Sequence record: OQ873415.1
Direction: 5' to 3' (one strand)
Length of the DNA: 64,000 nucleotides
Source: Escherichia phage PECP20
Of this stretch, positions 5,096-8,425 are shown in pieces. Within the stretch, counting starts at the first letter, position 1; the number at the start of each line of letters is the position of its first letter. The notes under the pieces are model-generated. The model did no database searches, was not told where the DNA came from, and worked only from the letters and a program-made list of their open reading frames with translations. Made by a program: the position numbers and the translations under genes.

Positions 5096-5175
5096 TGTTT
5101 TATGAAAAATATTTTTGATTTGAGAGGGGCGCAAGGAGATAGTGAAGTGAAGATTCCAATGGATTATATTAGAAA

Positions 5176-5207
5176 TAGGATAAAGAAGACCAGGCGCCGC
5201 CTGGTCA
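5176..5207 (-). terminator. Intrinsic terminator-like hairpin (GACCAGGCG-CCG-CCTGGTC) at the stop of the redoxin gene
   Basis: Palindrome followed by a T-rich tract on the minus strand. Confidence 0.45.
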
Positions 5208-5528
5208 ATCTTCTATGATATCAGAGTCATATCCTAATGAAATCAAGGACTTTTTAAACTCTGCAATATTCTTTTGTTTCTTATCATTTAAAAATATGAC
5301 AGGATAACGAATATTAAGTGAAGTGAATCCTGCACGTTTAGCAAGAGATACGATTAAAGGACGGTCGTATTCAATCTTACCATTATTAGTGAGGACTTTA
5401 TAAAATGTATAAGGAACATTGAGCTCCTTTAAAAGTTTTGTAACAGTATAACATCCTGGACAACGTCCAACTTCTTCAGGGATGCCATAAATTTCAATCT
5501 TGTTCTTTAAGTTCGAGTTTTGTTCCAC
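5205..5528 (-). CDS. Glutaredoxin/NrdH-like small redoxin (CPGC active site)
   Basis: Motif ...KIEIYGIPEEVGRCPGCYTVTKLL... typical of the thioredoxin-fold N-terminus; no in-frame ATG near the domain start; GTG at 5526-5528 with AAGGAA upstream proposed as start. Confidence 0.5.
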   Translation of the reverse strand: MEQNSNLKNKIEIYGIPEEVGRCPGCYTVTKLLKELNVPYTFYKVLTNNGKIEYDRPLIVSLAKRAGFTSLNIRYPVIFLNDKKQKNIAEFKKSLISLGYDSDIIED

Positions 5529-5811
5529 GAGAAATAATTCCTTGATAAGCCCAATAAGGAGGATTAACAGAATCATCACCAGAGTTTTCTTCAGGAAAAT
5601 AAACCTGGATAACAAATCCAGATGCATCAAATGTAAAATAAACTGTAGGCAGTTCACCTAACAATTCGACACGAGCATTAATTTCTTCGAGATCTCGTTC
5701 GCGTCCAGCCCAAAAACTAGGATTTAGATTACATTCGTAAAAATAATAGTCATTACCGAACATATCAAACCCATTCCAACTCTCTACCACGTACCGCTCA
5801 AAACTAATCAT
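5494..5811 (-). CDS. Hypothetical protein (105 aa)
   Basis: ORF track; 3' end overlaps the redoxin gene in another frame. Confidence 0.45.
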   Translation of the reverse strand: MISFERYVVESWNGFDMFGNDYYFYECNLNPSFWAGRERDLEEINARVELLGELPTVYFTFDASGFVIQVYFPEENSGDDSVNPPYWAYQGIISRGTKLELKEQD

Positions 5812-5813
5812 AA

Positions 5814-6029
5814 TTAAGCCTTTTTATCAAGAACAGCATTCAGCTTGTTAGTAATTTTATCCAGACGCTCATTGAACTCACTAGAAGATAAGCCCTTTTC
5901 TGGAGAAATTAAACTAATCACGAAAAATACACCAGTAAAAGGAATAAGAAAAATAGCTCCAACTGCCATAAACAAAAAGAACGTTACAGTTGTAAGAAAA
6001 TCAGCTAAACCTTTACGAAATTTATACAT
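5814..6029 (-). CDS. Small membrane protein (71 aa, one predicted transmembrane helix)
   Basis: Hydrophobic stretch TVTFFLFMAVGAIFLIPFTGVFFVISLI. Confidence 0.5.
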   Translation of the reverse strand: MYKFRKGLADFLTTVTFFLFMAVGAIFLIPFTGVFFVISLISPEKGLSSSEFNERLDKITNKLNAVLDKKA

Positions 6030-6140
6030 ATTTACCCCTAATTAATTAACCAAGCATTGATAAGCAAACCATATTGCGAATAAAATTCTGGACCAAAATG
6101 AAAAATCATATCATTTATAGTATCCATAATGTAATTCAAT

Positions 6141-6611
6141 TTAATCATGTTTCCACACCCCATCGGTATTTGACCAAAGTCGCTGATTATCTGATCCTCG
6201 CCACAGCTTTTTGGTCGGAAGATTTTTCTCATACTTCCCATCAATAATAACATCAACATATTTAAGCATTTCTAGCTGTTTAATATCTTCAAACTTATAT
6301 CCTGTCCACAACCAAATGCTTTTATTGGGATAAAGATTTTTAATAGTTTGAACTACAGAGTGAATAACATCTCGGTTATCAGGATAGAGAGGGTCTCCTC
6401 CGGTTATAGTCAATCCTTCTATATAATCATTATTCAAACATTCAATTAATTGTTCTAGTGTTTCACCAGTGAATGGAATACCATTTCTAGCATTCCATGT
6501 TGATTTATTATAACACCCTTCGCATTTATGCAAACAACCTGTAACGAAAAGAACGACCCTGCAACCAGGGCCATTAACAAAATCGCAAGGATAAAATCTA
6601 TCATAATTCAT
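6141..6611 (-). CDS. nrdG: Anaerobic ribonucleotide reductase activating protein NrdG (radical SAM)
   Basis: N-terminal CLHKCEGC cluster (CxxxCxxC); 156 aa; directly downstream of nrdD. Confidence 0.9.
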   Translation of the reverse strand: MNYDRFYPCDFVNGPGCRVVLFVTGCLHKCEGCYNKSTWNARNGIPFTGETLEQLIECLNNDYIEGLTITGGDPLYPDNRDVIHSVVQTIKNLYPNKSIWLWTGYKFEDIKQLEMLKYVDVIIDGKYEKNLPTKKLWRGSDNQRLWSNTDGVWKHD

Positions 6612-8425
6612 TGGTGTTTAACCCTATGCATGATTTCTTTATTTTTACCGAGATTAAATCCGCGTTCGTTCGGATTTCCCAAATAACCGCATGTCCTTCT
6701 TATAGTGTTCATCTTTTTAGGATCAGTTTCTCCACAAACTGAACAAACAAATCCGTTTTCAGTAGGAGTCATTTCATGAGTACTTCCACACGTAAAACAT
6801 TTATCTACTGGCATATTAACACCAAAATAATCTAAATGTTGTGCAGCATAATCCCACACGGCCTCAAGACCTTTTAGGTTATTTTTCATATCAGGAAGTT
6901 CAACATAAGAAATGTGACCACCTGTCGCAATGAAATGATATGGCGCTTCACGAGAAATCTTTTCAAACGGAGTAATATTTTCTTCTACTGAAACGTGGAA
7001 ACTATTAGTGTACCAGCCTTTATCGGTAACATCTTTTACGCTTCCATATTTTTCTGTATCAAGTTTACAGAAACGATAACACAAGTTTTCAGCAGGAGTA
7101 GAATATAAACTAAAAGCAAATCCAGTTCTTTCGGTCCACTGTTTAAGATGAGCATTCATTTTAGTTAAAATTTCTTGCCCAATATCACGACCGACAAGAA
7201 TATTCAATTCGTGAATACCAATGTATCCCAAAGACACTGAACTTCTACCGTTTTTAAATAACTCAATTATATCGTCGTCAGGTTTAAGACGAACCCCAAA
7301 TGCACCTTCTTGGTAAAGAATAGGAGCAACAGTCGCTTTAACTCCTTTTAAGGAACTAATTCTACACATCAAGGCTTCAAAGCACAGATCCATTCGTTCA
7401 TTAAATAACTCAACAAATTTCTGTTCATTGAACTGTGTTCCAATATAAGAATCTAACGCGATGCGAGGAAGATTCAGTGTTACAACACCGAGATTATTAC
7501 GTCCATCAAGAATTTCATTACCAGTCGAATCTTTCCATACACTCAAGAAACTACGGCAACCCATTGGAGAAACTGGAACTGAAGAACCAGTAATAGCTTT
7601 ATTATTCTTAACCGAAATAATGTCAGGATACATTCTTTTGCTTGCACATTCTAACGCAAGTTGTTTAATATCATAGTTCGGATCATCTTTATAAAGATTA
7701 ACACCTTCTTCAACAAACATAACAAGTTTAGGAAAAATAGGAGTTATTCCATCACGACCAAGACCTTTAATCCGATTTTTCAGAATTGCTTTCTGAATCA
7801 TTCGTTCGGTCCAATCAGTTCCAGTACCAAATGTAATTGTTACAAAAGGCGTTTGCCCGTTTGAACTAAAAAGAGTATTTACCTCATACTCATAAGCTTG
7901 AAATGCGTCATATACATCTTTTTCTGTTTTAGATTGAGCATAATTCAGAATGTCTGGTATTTGCCATTTTTCTGCATCTTCAACATGTTTAGCGTATGTA
8001 CGTTTAACATAAGGAGAAAGAACTTTATCGACATTCGCAAATGTAGTTCCGCCGTACTGATGTGAAGCAACTTGTGCAGTAATTTGTGCCATAATTGCAG
8101 TAGCAACACCAATCGATTTAGGCGTTTCAATTTGAGCATTGCCCAATTTAAATCCGTTCTCAAGCATCCCCTTTAAATCGACTAAACAGCAATTGGTAAA
8201 CGGAAGAGCAGGAGAATAATCAATATCATGCATGTGGATAATTCCACTTTCATGCGCATTCATAATAAAAGACGGGACCATATTTTTGGCAATGTGCTTA
8301 GACACAATACCAGCCATAAGGTCCCGTTGAGTTGGAAAAACACGAGAATCTTTATTAGCATTCTCGTTCAAAAGATCTTTATTAGTTTTATAAATTAATC
8401 CTTCAATTTCTTTTTCAATTTTCAT
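6608..8425 (-). CDS. nrdD: Anaerobic ribonucleoside-triphosphate reductase NrdD (glycyl radical enzyme), uninterrupted
   Basis: 605 aa; C-terminal glycyl-radical motif RRTCGYLG and Zn-ribbon cysteines; same length as T4 NrdD; one continuous ORF, no intron. Confidence 0.95.
   Translation of the reverse strand: MKIEKEIEGLIYKTNKDLLNENANKDSRVFPTQRDLMAGIVSKHIAKNMVPSFIMNAHESGIIHMHDIDYSPALPFTNCCLVDLKGMLENGFKLGNAQIETPKSIGVATAIMAQITAQVASHQYGGTTFANVDKVLSPYVKRTYAKHVEDAEKWQIPDILNYAQSKTEKDVYDAFQAYEYEVNTLFSSNGQTPFVTITFGTGTDWTERMIQKAILKNRIKGLGRDGITPIFPKLVMFVEEGVNLYKDDPNYDIKQLALECASKRMYPDIISVKNNKAITGSSVPVSPMGCRSFLSVWKDSTGNEILDGRNNLGVVTLNLPRIALDSYIGTQFNEQKFVELFNERMDLCFEALMCRISSLKGVKATVAPILYQEGAFGVRLKPDDDIIELFKNGRSSVSLGYIGIHELNILVGRDIGQEILTKMNAHLKQWTERTGFAFSLYSTPAENLCYRFCKLDTEKYGSVKDVTDKGWYTNSFHVSVEENITPFEKISREAPYHFIATGGHISYVELPDMKNNLKGLEAVWDYAAQHLDYFGVNMPVDKCFTCGSTHEMTPTENGFVCSVCGETDPKKMNTIRRTCGYLGNPNERGFNLGKNKEIMHRVKHQ

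What the first reader, a model, noticed from the sequence alone, without database searches (positions are those of the whole stretch)
5205..5811. Glutaredoxin/NrdH-like redoxin with no ATG start, overlapping an upstream ORF in another frame
The CPGC thioredoxin-fold domain begins where the upstream 105-aa ORF ends (stop TGA at 5494-5496), in a different frame. The only plausible initiator is GTG at 5526-5528 with AAGGAA eleven nt upstream, giving a 35-nt overlap. Alternatively the two ORFs could be joined by a programmed frameshift.
Basis: seen in the sequence. Interest (0 to 1): 0.35.

Follow-up and report, generated by a model that had tools for sequence, protein, structure and literature searches.

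The report
Phage nrdH redoxin, GTG start
This is the T4-type phage gene nrdH, a small glutaredoxin-like protein that starts at a GTG codon lying 35 bases inside the preceding gene; databases already annotate it this way and no frameshift is needed, so the finding is ordinary.

Summary
On the minus strand a 107-aa CPGC redoxin (5205-5528) starts at GTG 5528..5526. An AAGGAA Shine-Dalgarno lies at 5543..5538, with a 9-nt spacer rather than 11. The redoxin overlaps a 105-aa upstream ORF (5494-5811) by 35 nt and reads in its +1 frame.

The window is an RB69-like (Mosigvirus) T4-type phage. The redoxin is the orthologue of T4 nrdH. T4 itself lacks the upstream ORF, yet its nrdH is also annotated from GTG after AAGGAA. 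All 23 loci that carry the upstream ORF's conserved tail have GTG or TTG at the homologous position, while the overlap length varies (20/26/29/35 nt). Substitution patterns show that the redoxin frame is not coding upstream of the GTG. The overlap itself is almost invariant.

Nothing supports a programmed frameshift. There is no slippery motif and no Rfam match, and the RNA is less structured than shuffled controls. Homology searches found no fused protein. The only fused ORF seen, in Pectobacterium phage PM2, differs by one A in an A7 run.

More distant homologues use ATG, some through an ATGA junction.

Verdict: GTG initiation from a ribosome-binding site embedded in the upstream gene. Already known, low interest.

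The parts
5205..5528 (-). nrdH-like glutaredoxin-fold redoxin CDS (107 aa plus TGA stop at 5207..5205). It is the orthologue of T4 nrdH.
   Evidence: ORF and translation. It is 84% identical to T4 NrdH. Pfam Glutaredoxin scores 23.1 bits against a cut-off of 22.9, and it matches phrog_22 'thioredoxin domain'. The AF2 model has pLDDT 81; its closest PDB fold by TM-score is T4 glutaredoxin 1ABA, TM 0.79 normalised by target length. The same 324-nt CDS is annotated in relatives.
5526..5528 (-). GTG initiation codon of nrdH. In the upstream gene's frame it is formed by the last two bases of Arg95 (CGT) and the first base of Gly96 (GGA).
   Evidence: GTG or TTG occupies the homologous position in 23 of 23 loci. 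The upstream-frame codon changes between CGT, TGT and CTT (AGT in PM2), so the amino acid varies while the start codon is kept. T4 nrdH is annotated from a homologous GTG.
5538..5543 (-). Shine-Dalgarno AAGGAA, 9 nt upstream of the GTG. In the upstream gene's frame it falls on Gln90-Gly91-Ile92 (cAA GGA Att).
   Evidence: It is conserved as AAGGAA, AAGGAG or GAAGGTGG across lineages. It is retained in T4-type phages that lack the upstream ORF (AAGGAATAGTTGTG). It is annotated as an RBS in phage Mizar.
5494..5528 (-). 35-nt dual-coding overlap. It encodes the nrdH N-terminal tail (MEQNSNLKNKIE) and, in the other frame, the upstream ORF's C-terminal tail (RGTKLELKEQD*).
   Evidence: Only 1 variable site in 35 nt among 10 close relatives, against 52 in the 283 nt upstream and 68 in the 285 nt downstream. 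That one change (CAA>TAA) is nonsense in the upstream frame and synonymous (AAC>AAT) in the nrdH frame. Residues 1-7 of the NrdH model are disordered.
5494..5811 (-). Upstream 105-aa gene of unknown function, the RB69ORF082c family (phrog_2749). Its 3' end carries the nrdH translation-initiation region.
   Evidence: phrog_2749 at E 1.2e-48. Substitutions are 39 synonymous to 13 non-synonymous in its own frame. The AF2 model has pLDDT 86.5 and pTM 0.76, with no PDB fold match. The family is small, 88-105 aa, and none is fused. It is present in 526 phage records.
5451..5462 (-). CPGC active-site motif (Cys23-Pro-Gly-Cys26) of the redoxin.
   Evidence: Read directly from the sequence. C23, G25 and C26 are invariant in the family alignment. 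The motif sits just before the N-terminus of helix 24-35 in the model, after strand 11-15.
5814..6029 (-). Homologue of T4 gene 55.8, a predicted membrane protein of 71 aa. It lies immediately upstream of the 105-aa gene.
   Evidence: phrog_1930 at E 1.4e-35. Annotated as gp55.8 in relatives. In T4 this gene directly abuts nrdH.
5188..5206 (-). GC-rich hairpin followed by a T-run, overlapping the last two bases of the nrdH stop codon and extending downstream. It is a terminator-like end to the nrdD-nrdG-55.8-ORF-nrdH gene string.
   Evidence: The terminator scan finds GACCAGGCGGCGCCTGGTC followed by TTCTTTAT. The equivalent site is annotated as a terminator in phage ATK47.

Best explanation
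The redoxin is the phage's nrdH gene. It is the last gene of the anaerobic ribonucleotide-reductase gene string nrdD-nrdG-55.8-ORF082c-nrdH. It is translated as a separate 107-aa protein.

Ribosomes initiate at GTG 5528..5526, directed by the AAGGAA Shine-Dalgarno 9 nt upstream. Both signals are written into the codons of the last 16 residues of the upstream gene (Gln-Gly gives AAGGA; Arg-Gly gives GTG). The two genes therefore overlap by 35 nt, with nrdH in the +1 frame.

The first ~10 residues made from the GTG form a disordered tail ahead of the glutaredoxin fold.

What is shown: the anatomy, conservation of the start signals with and without the upstream gene, and coding signal in each frame. 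What is inferred: the weak start codon and traffic of ribosomes finishing the upstream gene set a modest NrdH level that is partly coupled to the upstream gene.
For: 1. Five independently deposited relatives annotate the same 324-nt CDS from this GTG. Reference T4 nrdH (NP_049686) is also annotated from a GTG after AAGGAA.
2. T4-type phages lack the 105-aa gene, and Shigella phage CT01 has lost most of it. Both still retain AAGGAA...GTG(A/G)AACAAAA ahead of nrdH. The start site therefore works without the upstream protein.
3. In 23 of 23 loci carrying the upstream tail, GTG (21) or TTG (2) lies at the homologous position. The upstream-frame codon varies among CGT, TGT and CTT (Arg, Cys, Leu), so selection acts on the start codon and not on that residue.
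4. Upstream of the GTG, substitutions are 39 synonymous to 13 non-synonymous in the upstream gene's frame but 3 to 49 in the nrdH frame. Several relatives also have nrdH-frame stops just upstream of the GTG. A longer N-terminus from the upstream ATGs is thereby excluded.
5. Between the GTG and strand beta-1 there is no other ATG, GTG or TTG. The fold starts at residue 11.
6. The region around the start is less folded than shuffled controls (z = +2.29), as expected for an accessible initiation site.
Against: No experiment on the N-terminus of NrdH was found for this phage or for T4. The start therefore rests on comparative inference and annotation. A GTG start inside a translated gene may be used inefficiently. 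Pectobacterium phage PM2, as deposited, has the two ORFs fused in frame, so a fused form cannot be called impossible.
Confidence: 0.9

Rival explanations
1. Programmed +1 (or -2) ribosomal frameshifting within the 35-nt overlap joins the 105-aa protein to the redoxin. The result would be a fusion of about 200 aa, made instead of or in addition to free NrdH.
For: The two ORFs are always adjacent with a constant +1 frame relation. The deposited PM2 genome encodes a 199-aa in-frame fusion of the same two modules.
Against: - The overlap (CGU GGA ACA AAA CUC GAA CUU AAA GAA CAA GAU UGA) has no recognised +1 slippery or stall motif, and no Shine-Dalgarno is placed 3 nt before a shift site (sequence).
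- The upstream stop codon moves between lineages, giving overlaps of 20, 26, 29 and 35 nt. In close relatives CAA>TAA cuts two residues with no effect in the nrdH frame.
- The RNA is less structured than shuffles, and no Rfam element is found.
- T4-type and CT01-type phages lack an intact upstream gene yet keep nrdH with its own SD and GTG.
- Every family member returned by the profile searches of 5.8 billion and of 1.84 billion proteins is 88-105 aa, and none is fused. Of 543 phage records carrying both parts, every listed record other than PM2 (58 of the 60 rows shown) has them in two frames.
- The PM2 fusion differs from the normal arrangement by one A in an A7 run. A8 would restore GTG-EKKYPKIEIYG and an upstream stop.
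Confidence: 0.03
2. Translation starts further upstream in the redoxin frame, at ATG 5576..5574, ATG 5627..5625 or GTG 5657. This would give a 123-150-aa protein with a hydrophobic N-terminal extension.
For: The redoxin frame is open back to 5657 in the window and contains in-frame ATGs.
Against: The ATGs are replaced in close relatives (L002, L003, L005, L009). The frame is closed by stops just upstream of the GTG in other lineages (L014-16, L019, L024). Substitutions upstream of the GTG are 3 synonymous to 49 non-synonymous in this frame. T4 has stops immediately upstream.
Confidence: 0.01
3. Initiation occurs downstream of the GTG at a non-canonical codon next to strand beta-1, for example ATT 5498..5496. 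This would mimic the M-IEIYG start of distant homologues.
For: Distant homologues start with ATG directly before I-E-I-Y-G. The window's Lys10 AAG occupies the position of that ATG. The N-terminal tail is disordered and varies in length.
Against: No ATG, GTG or TTG exists there. No Shine-Dalgarno precedes the ATT. The GTG and its SD are conserved across genera and in T4, and the MxQN tail is conserved in the nrdH frame even where no upstream gene constrains it.
Confidence: 0.04

Closest known systems
Bacteriophage T4 nrdH (NP_049686.1, 'NrdH glutaredoxin')
   Same: Orthologue: 84% identical. It occupies the same position downstream of nrdD-nrdG-55.8 and ahead of 55.6. It uses the same GTG start after AAGGAA and has the same MxQN...KIE(I/V)YGIP N-terminus.
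   Different: T4 has no 105-aa gene between 55.8 and nrdH, so its GTG sits 2 nt after the 55.8 stop rather than inside a gene. The T4 spacer is 5 nt against 9 nt here, and the T4 protein is 5 residues shorter (102 aa).
Bacteriophage T4 glutaredoxin/thioredoxin NrdC (PDB 1ABA, 1AAZ)
   Same: It is the best sequence match among solved structures (E 0.014). It is also the closest fold by TM-score (0.79 normalised by target length, rmsd 2.2-2.3 A). Both are small phage CxxC redoxins.
   Different: Only 18-19% identical. The active site is CVYC in NrdC and CPGC here. The window protein has an extra disordered N-terminal tail and a C-terminal helix.
E. coli NrdH-redoxin (class Ib RNR reductant; PDB 1H75)
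   Same: It shares the name, the thioredoxin/glutaredoxin fold and a CxxC site (rank 41, TM 0.61 normalised by target length).
   Different: There is no match to an NrdH-redoxin NCBIfam model; the only hit is a weak one to GlrX_YruB at 17 bits against a cut-off of 88.6. The motif is CPGC, not C(V/M)QC. The gene sits with class III (nrdDG) genes, not class Ib. The phage name is historical.
ATGA-type translational coupling of the same gene pair in a distant T4-like phage (KY593455.1, locus L044)
   Same: A homologue of the 105-aa gene is followed directly by the redoxin on the same strand.
   Different: There the redoxin starts at ATG right before beta-1 (MIKVYGIP) with a 4-nt ATGA overlap. The upstream protein lacks the YQGIISRG tail that carries the SD and GTG in the window's clade.
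prfB-type programmed +1 frameshifting (E. coli RF2)
   Same: The downstream frame is +1 relative to the upstream ORF, and the upstream ORF ends in a TGA.
   Different: The window lacks the CUU-UGA-type slippery codon at a poor stop and lacks an internal Shine-Dalgarno 3 nt upstream. The stop position is not conserved. Features of the prfB site are taken from established knowledge, not tested with a tool.

Membership tests
Glutaredoxin / thioredoxin-fold redoxin (Pfam PF00462) | Score above the Pfam gathering threshold | tested here: met
   23.1 bits against a cut-off of 22.9, E 8.8e-05. This is a marginal pass. phrog_22 'thioredoxin domain' matches at E 4.5e-16.
Glutaredoxin / thioredoxin-fold redoxin (Pfam PF00462) | CxxC active site between strand beta-1 and the N-terminus of helix alpha-1 | tested here: met
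   C23-P-G-C26 follows strand 11-15 and sits just before helix 24-35 in the AF2 model. C23, G25 and C26 are invariant in 16 homologues.
Glutaredoxin / thioredoxin-fold redoxin (Pfam PF00462) | Overall fold superposes on solved glutaredoxins | tested here: met
   The top Foldseek hits are glutaredoxins. T4 Grx 1ABA and 1AAZ give TM 0.66 by query and 0.79 by target, rmsd 2.2-2.3 A. E-values are only 1.6e-3 to 4e-3.
Glutaredoxin / thioredoxin-fold redoxin (Pfam PF00462) | Glutathione-dependent disulfide reductase activity | not testable with these tools
   The only evidence is the T4 record's note 'has glutaredoxin activity'. No paper with the assay was found.
NrdH-redoxin family (class Ib RNR reductant) | Match to an NrdH-redoxin family model | tested here: not met
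   The NCBIfam scan returns only GlrX_YruB at 17.2 bits against a cut-off of 88.55. No NrdH model matches at E <= 0.1.
NrdH-redoxin family (class Ib RNR reductant) | C(V/M)QC active site and genomic association with nrdIEF | tested here: not met
   The motif here is CPGC. The neighbours are the class III genes nrdD and nrdG. The family's motif is taken from established knowledge.
T4 nrdH orthologue group | High sequence identity to T4 NrdH and conserved synteny (nrdD-nrdG-55.8-...-nrdH-55.6) | tested here: met
   84% identity. Synteny is shown.
Programmed ribosomal frameshift site | Slippery sequence at a conserved position in the overlap | tested here: not met
   No heptanucleotide X XXY YYZ and no +1 slip/stall codon occurs in the overlap. 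The overlap sequence and the stop position differ between lineages.
Programmed ribosomal frameshift site | Stimulatory element (downstream hairpin or pseudoknot, or upstream internal SD at the right spacing) | tested here: not met
   MFE is -15.8 kcal/mol against -23.5 for shuffles, z = +2.29. No Rfam match is found.
Programmed ribosomal frameshift site | Trans-frame fusion product exists, or fused homologues are common | tested here: not met
   Every family protein returned by the two profile searches is 88-105 aa. The only fused ORF is in PM2 and is attributable to an A7 versus A8 run. Protein-level detection is not testable here.
Overlapping gene pair with an internal translation-initiation region | SD plus start codon of the downstream gene inside the upstream coding sequence, on the same strand and conserved | tested here: met
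   AAGGAA, a 9-nt spacer, then GTG, all inside the last 16 codons of the upstream gene. This is conserved in 23 of 23 loci. The overlap is nearly invariant among close relatives.

The most novel reading that the evidence does not exclude
The 105-aa protein and the NrdH-like redoxin may be functional partners. The strict adjacency, the invariant Cys27 in the 105-aa family and the in-frame fusion deposited for phage PM2 all hint at this. In some phages a fused form might be produced on purpose, by rare +1 shifting in the overlap or by slippage on a poly-A run as in PM2, alongside free NrdH made from the GTG.
Probability: 0.04. Interest if true: 0.45.

Novelty: already known. Interest (0 to 1): 0.12.

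Why it matters
It matters little beyond annotation hygiene. The GTG start and the overlap are already in the reference annotations of T4 and RB69-like phages.

The useful by-products are these:

- A clear comparative argument that the GTG is the true start. This can correct records that mis-annotate the pair: PM2's 199-aa 'glutaredoxin', UFV-AREG1's 173-aa protein, JS09's truncated upstream ORF, and records that omit the upstream ORF.
- An example of a ribosome-binding site and start codon written into conserved codons of an upstream gene.
- The finding that this 'NrdH' is not a member of the class Ib NrdH-redoxin family.
- The observation that the upstream 105-aa family is a small T4-like-phage family of unknown function with no solved-structure relative, always linked to this redoxin.

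Tried and rejected
1. Frameshift reading. I looked for slippery motifs in the overlap across 23 loci, for RNA structure, for Rfam elements and for fused homologues in protein collections and phage genomes. Nothing turned up except PM2.

2. Upstream ATG starts. These were rejected on non-conservation, in-frame stops in relatives and substitution pattern.

3. UFV-AREG1. I first read its 173-aa protein (P0003) as a natural deletion fusing 55.8 to NrdH. No phage record contains that junction as contiguous DNA, and BFVD lists a separate 81-aa upstream-ORF protein for that phage. I therefore treat it as a probable annotation artefact, not as evidence.

4. Function of the 105-aa protein. Pfam, NCBIfam and PDB sequence searches gave nothing. 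Foldseek against the PDB gave only insignificant PCNA-like hits (best E 0.24, TM <= 0.35). BFVD returned only uncharacterised family members.

5. Literature. I found no experimental determination of the T4 NrdH N-terminus. The T4 genome review (PMC150520) and the PM2 genome paper are not held.

6. Promoter scan. It found only weak sigma-70-like matches, fewer than in shuffled sequence.

Full report
**What is there**

The window is from an RB69-like T4-type phage (Mosigvirus). Window 5100-5900 is 100% identical to Escherichia phage CCU7 and 96-99% identical to many Mosigvirus and Tequatrovirus genomes.

The genes run on the minus strand in this order:

- nrdD, 6608-8425
- nrdG, 6141-6611
- a 55.8 homologue, 5814-6029
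- a 105-aa ORF of the RB69ORF082c family (phrog_2749), 5494-5811
- the redoxin, 5205-5528

A terminator-like hairpin follows at 5206..5188. The equivalent site is annotated as a terminator in phage ATK47.

**Checking the observation**

- CPGC is encoded at 5462..5451.
- The upstream ORF stops at TGA 5496..5494, which falls inside the redoxin's Ile11-Glu12 codons.
- GTG is at 5528..5526 and AAGGAA at 5543..5538.
- The overlap is 35 nt, and the redoxin reads in the +1 frame of the upstream ORF.

Two details need correcting. The spacer between AAGGAA and GTG is 9 nt, not 11. The redoxin frame also stays open back to 5657 and holds in-frame ATGs at 5576 and 5627.

The arrangement is unusual for this genome. 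In a homologous annotated 50-kb stretch of phage JS09, 96 of 99 genes start with ATG, 2 with GTG and 1 with TTG. This 35-nt overlap is the longest of 98 junctions.

**What the redoxin is**

- It is 84% identical to T4 NrdH.
- It passes the Pfam Glutaredoxin threshold only marginally: 23.1 bits against 22.9.
- Its best match among solved structures, by sequence, is T4 glutaredoxin NrdC. By fold the top matches are glutaredoxins, and T4 glutaredoxin has the highest TM-score (0.79 by target, rmsd 2.2 A).
- It does not match any NrdH-redoxin model in NCBIfam, and its motif is CPGC.

'NrdH' is therefore a historical phage name. The protein is a glutaredoxin-fold redoxin attached to the class III (anaerobic) reductase gene string.

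**Where translation starts**

Deposited annotations of five relatives use exactly this GTG. Reference T4 nrdH is also annotated from a GTG preceded by AAGGAA.

T4-type phages lack the 105-aa gene altogether. There the sequence AAGGAATAGTTGTGAAACAAAAT follows the 55.8 coding region directly. Shigella phage CT01 has lost the first ~79 codons of the 105-aa gene, but it keeps the tail that carries the SD and GTG, now fused to 55.8. The start signals therefore persist whether or not the upstream gene is intact.

Across 23 loci from several genera that carry the upstream gene's tail (W-x-Y-Q/E-G-x-I-S/T-x-G), GTG (21 loci) or TTG (2 loci) sits at the homologous position. The upstream-frame codon supplying its first two bases changes among CGT (Arg), TGT (Cys) and CTT (Leu), and is AGT (Ser) in PM2. 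The start codon is preserved while the residue is not. The SD is preserved as AAGGAA, AAGGAG or GAAGGTGG.

**Frame-specific selection**

Ten close relatives were compared.

| Region | Length | Changes, upstream gene's frame (syn / non-syn) | Changes, redoxin frame (syn / non-syn) |
|---|---|---|---|
| Upstream of the GTG | 283 nt | 39 / 13 | 3 / 49 |
| Overlap | 35 nt | 0 / 1 | 1 / 0 |
| Downstream of the overlap | 285 nt | 5 / 63 | 42 / 26 |

The redoxin frame is thus non-coding upstream of the GTG. Several lineages also have redoxin-frame stops a few codons before the GTG. Together these points rule out the upstream ATGs.

The overlap has only one variable site, against 52 and 68 in the flanks. 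That single change (CAA>TAA) truncates the upstream protein by two residues and is silent (AAC>AAT) in the redoxin.

The structure model shows residues 1-7 disordered and strand beta-1 at 11-15. No other ATG, GTG or TTG lies between the GTG and beta-1.

**The frameshift alternative**

- The shift needed is +1. The overlap contains no recognised slippery or stalling motif.
- The upstream stop moves between lineages, giving overlaps of 20, 26, 29 and 35 nt.
- The RNA is less folded than shuffled controls: MFE -15.8 against -23.5 kcal/mol, z = +2.29.
- No Rfam family matches.
- The 105-aa family is small. A profile search returned 26 clusters from 5.8 billion proteins and 8 representatives from 1.84 billion. 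All are 88-105 aa and none is fused to a redoxin.
- Of 543 phage records carrying both parts, every listed record except Pectobacterium phage PM2 (58 of the 60 rows shown) has them in two frames.
- PM2's 199-aa fusion differs from the standard arrangement by one A in an A7 run. With A8 the sequence would read GTG-GAA-AAA-AAA-TAT-CCT-AAA-ATT-GAA..., and the upstream ORF would stop at TAA. A homopolymer error and a lineage-specific fusion cannot be distinguished here.

**Wider comparison**

More distant T4-like phages start the redoxin at ATG directly before beta-1: MIEIYG, MKVEIYG, MSAKIEIYG, MNIEIYG and MKIEIYG.

In KY593455.1 a distant homologue of the 105-aa gene lacks the YQGIISRG tail. It is joined to the redoxin by a plain ATGA junction. 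The gene pairing is therefore older than the GTG/overlap junction, and the latter characterises the window's clade. By inference, the window's Lys10 codon AAG occupies the position of that ATG.

**The upstream protein**

The AF2 model is confident (pLDDT 86.5, pTM 0.76). It is a small alpha/beta protein. It has no significant PDB fold match and only uncharacterised viral relatives. Cys27 is invariant. Its function remains unknown. Its constant adjacency to the redoxin could reflect partnership, or simply that its tail carries the redoxin's start signals.

**Mechanism**

Shown: the anatomy, conservation of the SD and GTG in three different upstream contexts, and the coding signal of each frame.

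Inferred: 30S subunits bind the exposed, A/U-rich AAGGAA...GTG site inside the upstream gene's last 16 codons and make a free 107-aa NrdH. The weak start codon and ribosome traffic on the upstream gene probably keep its level modest and loosely coupled to the upstream gene.

**Verdict**

The frameshift alternative is not supported. The feature is already annotated in reference genomes, so novelty is nil and interest is low.

Noticed in passing
L027 1207-1806 (same as L040 708-1307; Pectobacterium phage PM2, NC_028940 41901-42500): The 105-aa-family ORF and the redoxin are deposited as one in-frame 199-aa 'glutaredoxin'. The junction holds an A7 run (GTGGAAAAAAATATCC). One more A would restore the usual GTG start and the upstream stop. 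This is either a homopolymer error or a real natural fusion.
   Followed up: partly
L042 712-975 and 947-1270 (Shigella phage CT01, OK018184): A natural deletion fuses gene 55.8 in frame to the last ~26 codons of the 105-aa gene (…DKITNKLN|SVNPPYWAYQGIISRGTKLELKE*). It removes most of that gene but keeps the tail that carries the nrdH SD and GTG.
   Followed up: yes
P0003 (Escherichia phage UFV-AREG1, 173 aa): This protein is annotated as 'glutaredoxin' and joins the N-terminal part of 55.8 to the redoxin frame (…DKITNK|ELFLVEQNS…). No phage record holds that junction as contiguous DNA, and BFVD lists a separate 81-aa upstream-ORF protein for the same phage. It is probably an annotation artefact.
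   Followed up: partly
window 5494-5811 (-) and alignment A3: The 105-aa family (phrog_2749) gives a confident AF2 model with no PDB fold relative. It has an invariant Cys27 and is very small: 8 representatives at 50% identity among 1.84 billion proteins, and every member whose source is known is from a T4-like phage. Every member whose context was examined lies in the anaerobic-reductase region: directly upstream of the redoxin in all but one, and after nrdG in the short contig L045, where a membrane-protein gene follows instead. Function is unknown.
   Followed up: partly
L003 1638-1907 / L043 26886-27155 (phage JS09, RefSeq): The upstream ORF is annotated from an internal ATG (89 aa) rather than the 105-aa start. 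The N-terminal residues that this skips (E5, V8, W12) are conserved across the family, so the longer form (ATG at window 5811) is the likely true start. Some other records omit this ORF entirely, for example ATK47.
   Followed up: partly
window 6038-6148 (-): A 36-aa ORF (MIKLNYIMDTINDMIFHFGPEFYSQYGLLINAWLIN) lies between nrdG and 55.8 and overlaps the nrdG 3' end by 8 nt. It is annotated in ATK47 and CT01 (RB32ORF074c-like) but not in several other relatives.
   Followed up: no
window 6608-8425 (-): nrdD is a single uninterrupted 605-aa ORF here. In T4, nrdD is split by a group I intron carrying I-TevII, and mobC lies between nrdD and nrdG.
   Followed up: no
L017 and L018 about 1440-1510 (IMG/VR T4-like genomes; the upstream-ORF family proteins P0043 and P0044 come from Kosakonia phage Kc304 and Escherichia phage EcS1): In this lineage the redoxin start at the homologous position is TTG, formed by Leu-Gly codons CTT GGx of the upstream gene. 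The SD-like sequence GGTGA lies only 3 nt upstream, and a second in-frame TTG follows 3 codons later. The exact start in this lineage is uncertain.
   Followed up: partly
L045 333-629 and 713-895 (metagenome contig ERZ27241777): In this distant relative the gene order is nrdG, then a homologue of the 105-aa gene, then a 55.8-like membrane protein. The order of the two small genes is therefore reversed relative to the window.
   Followed up: no
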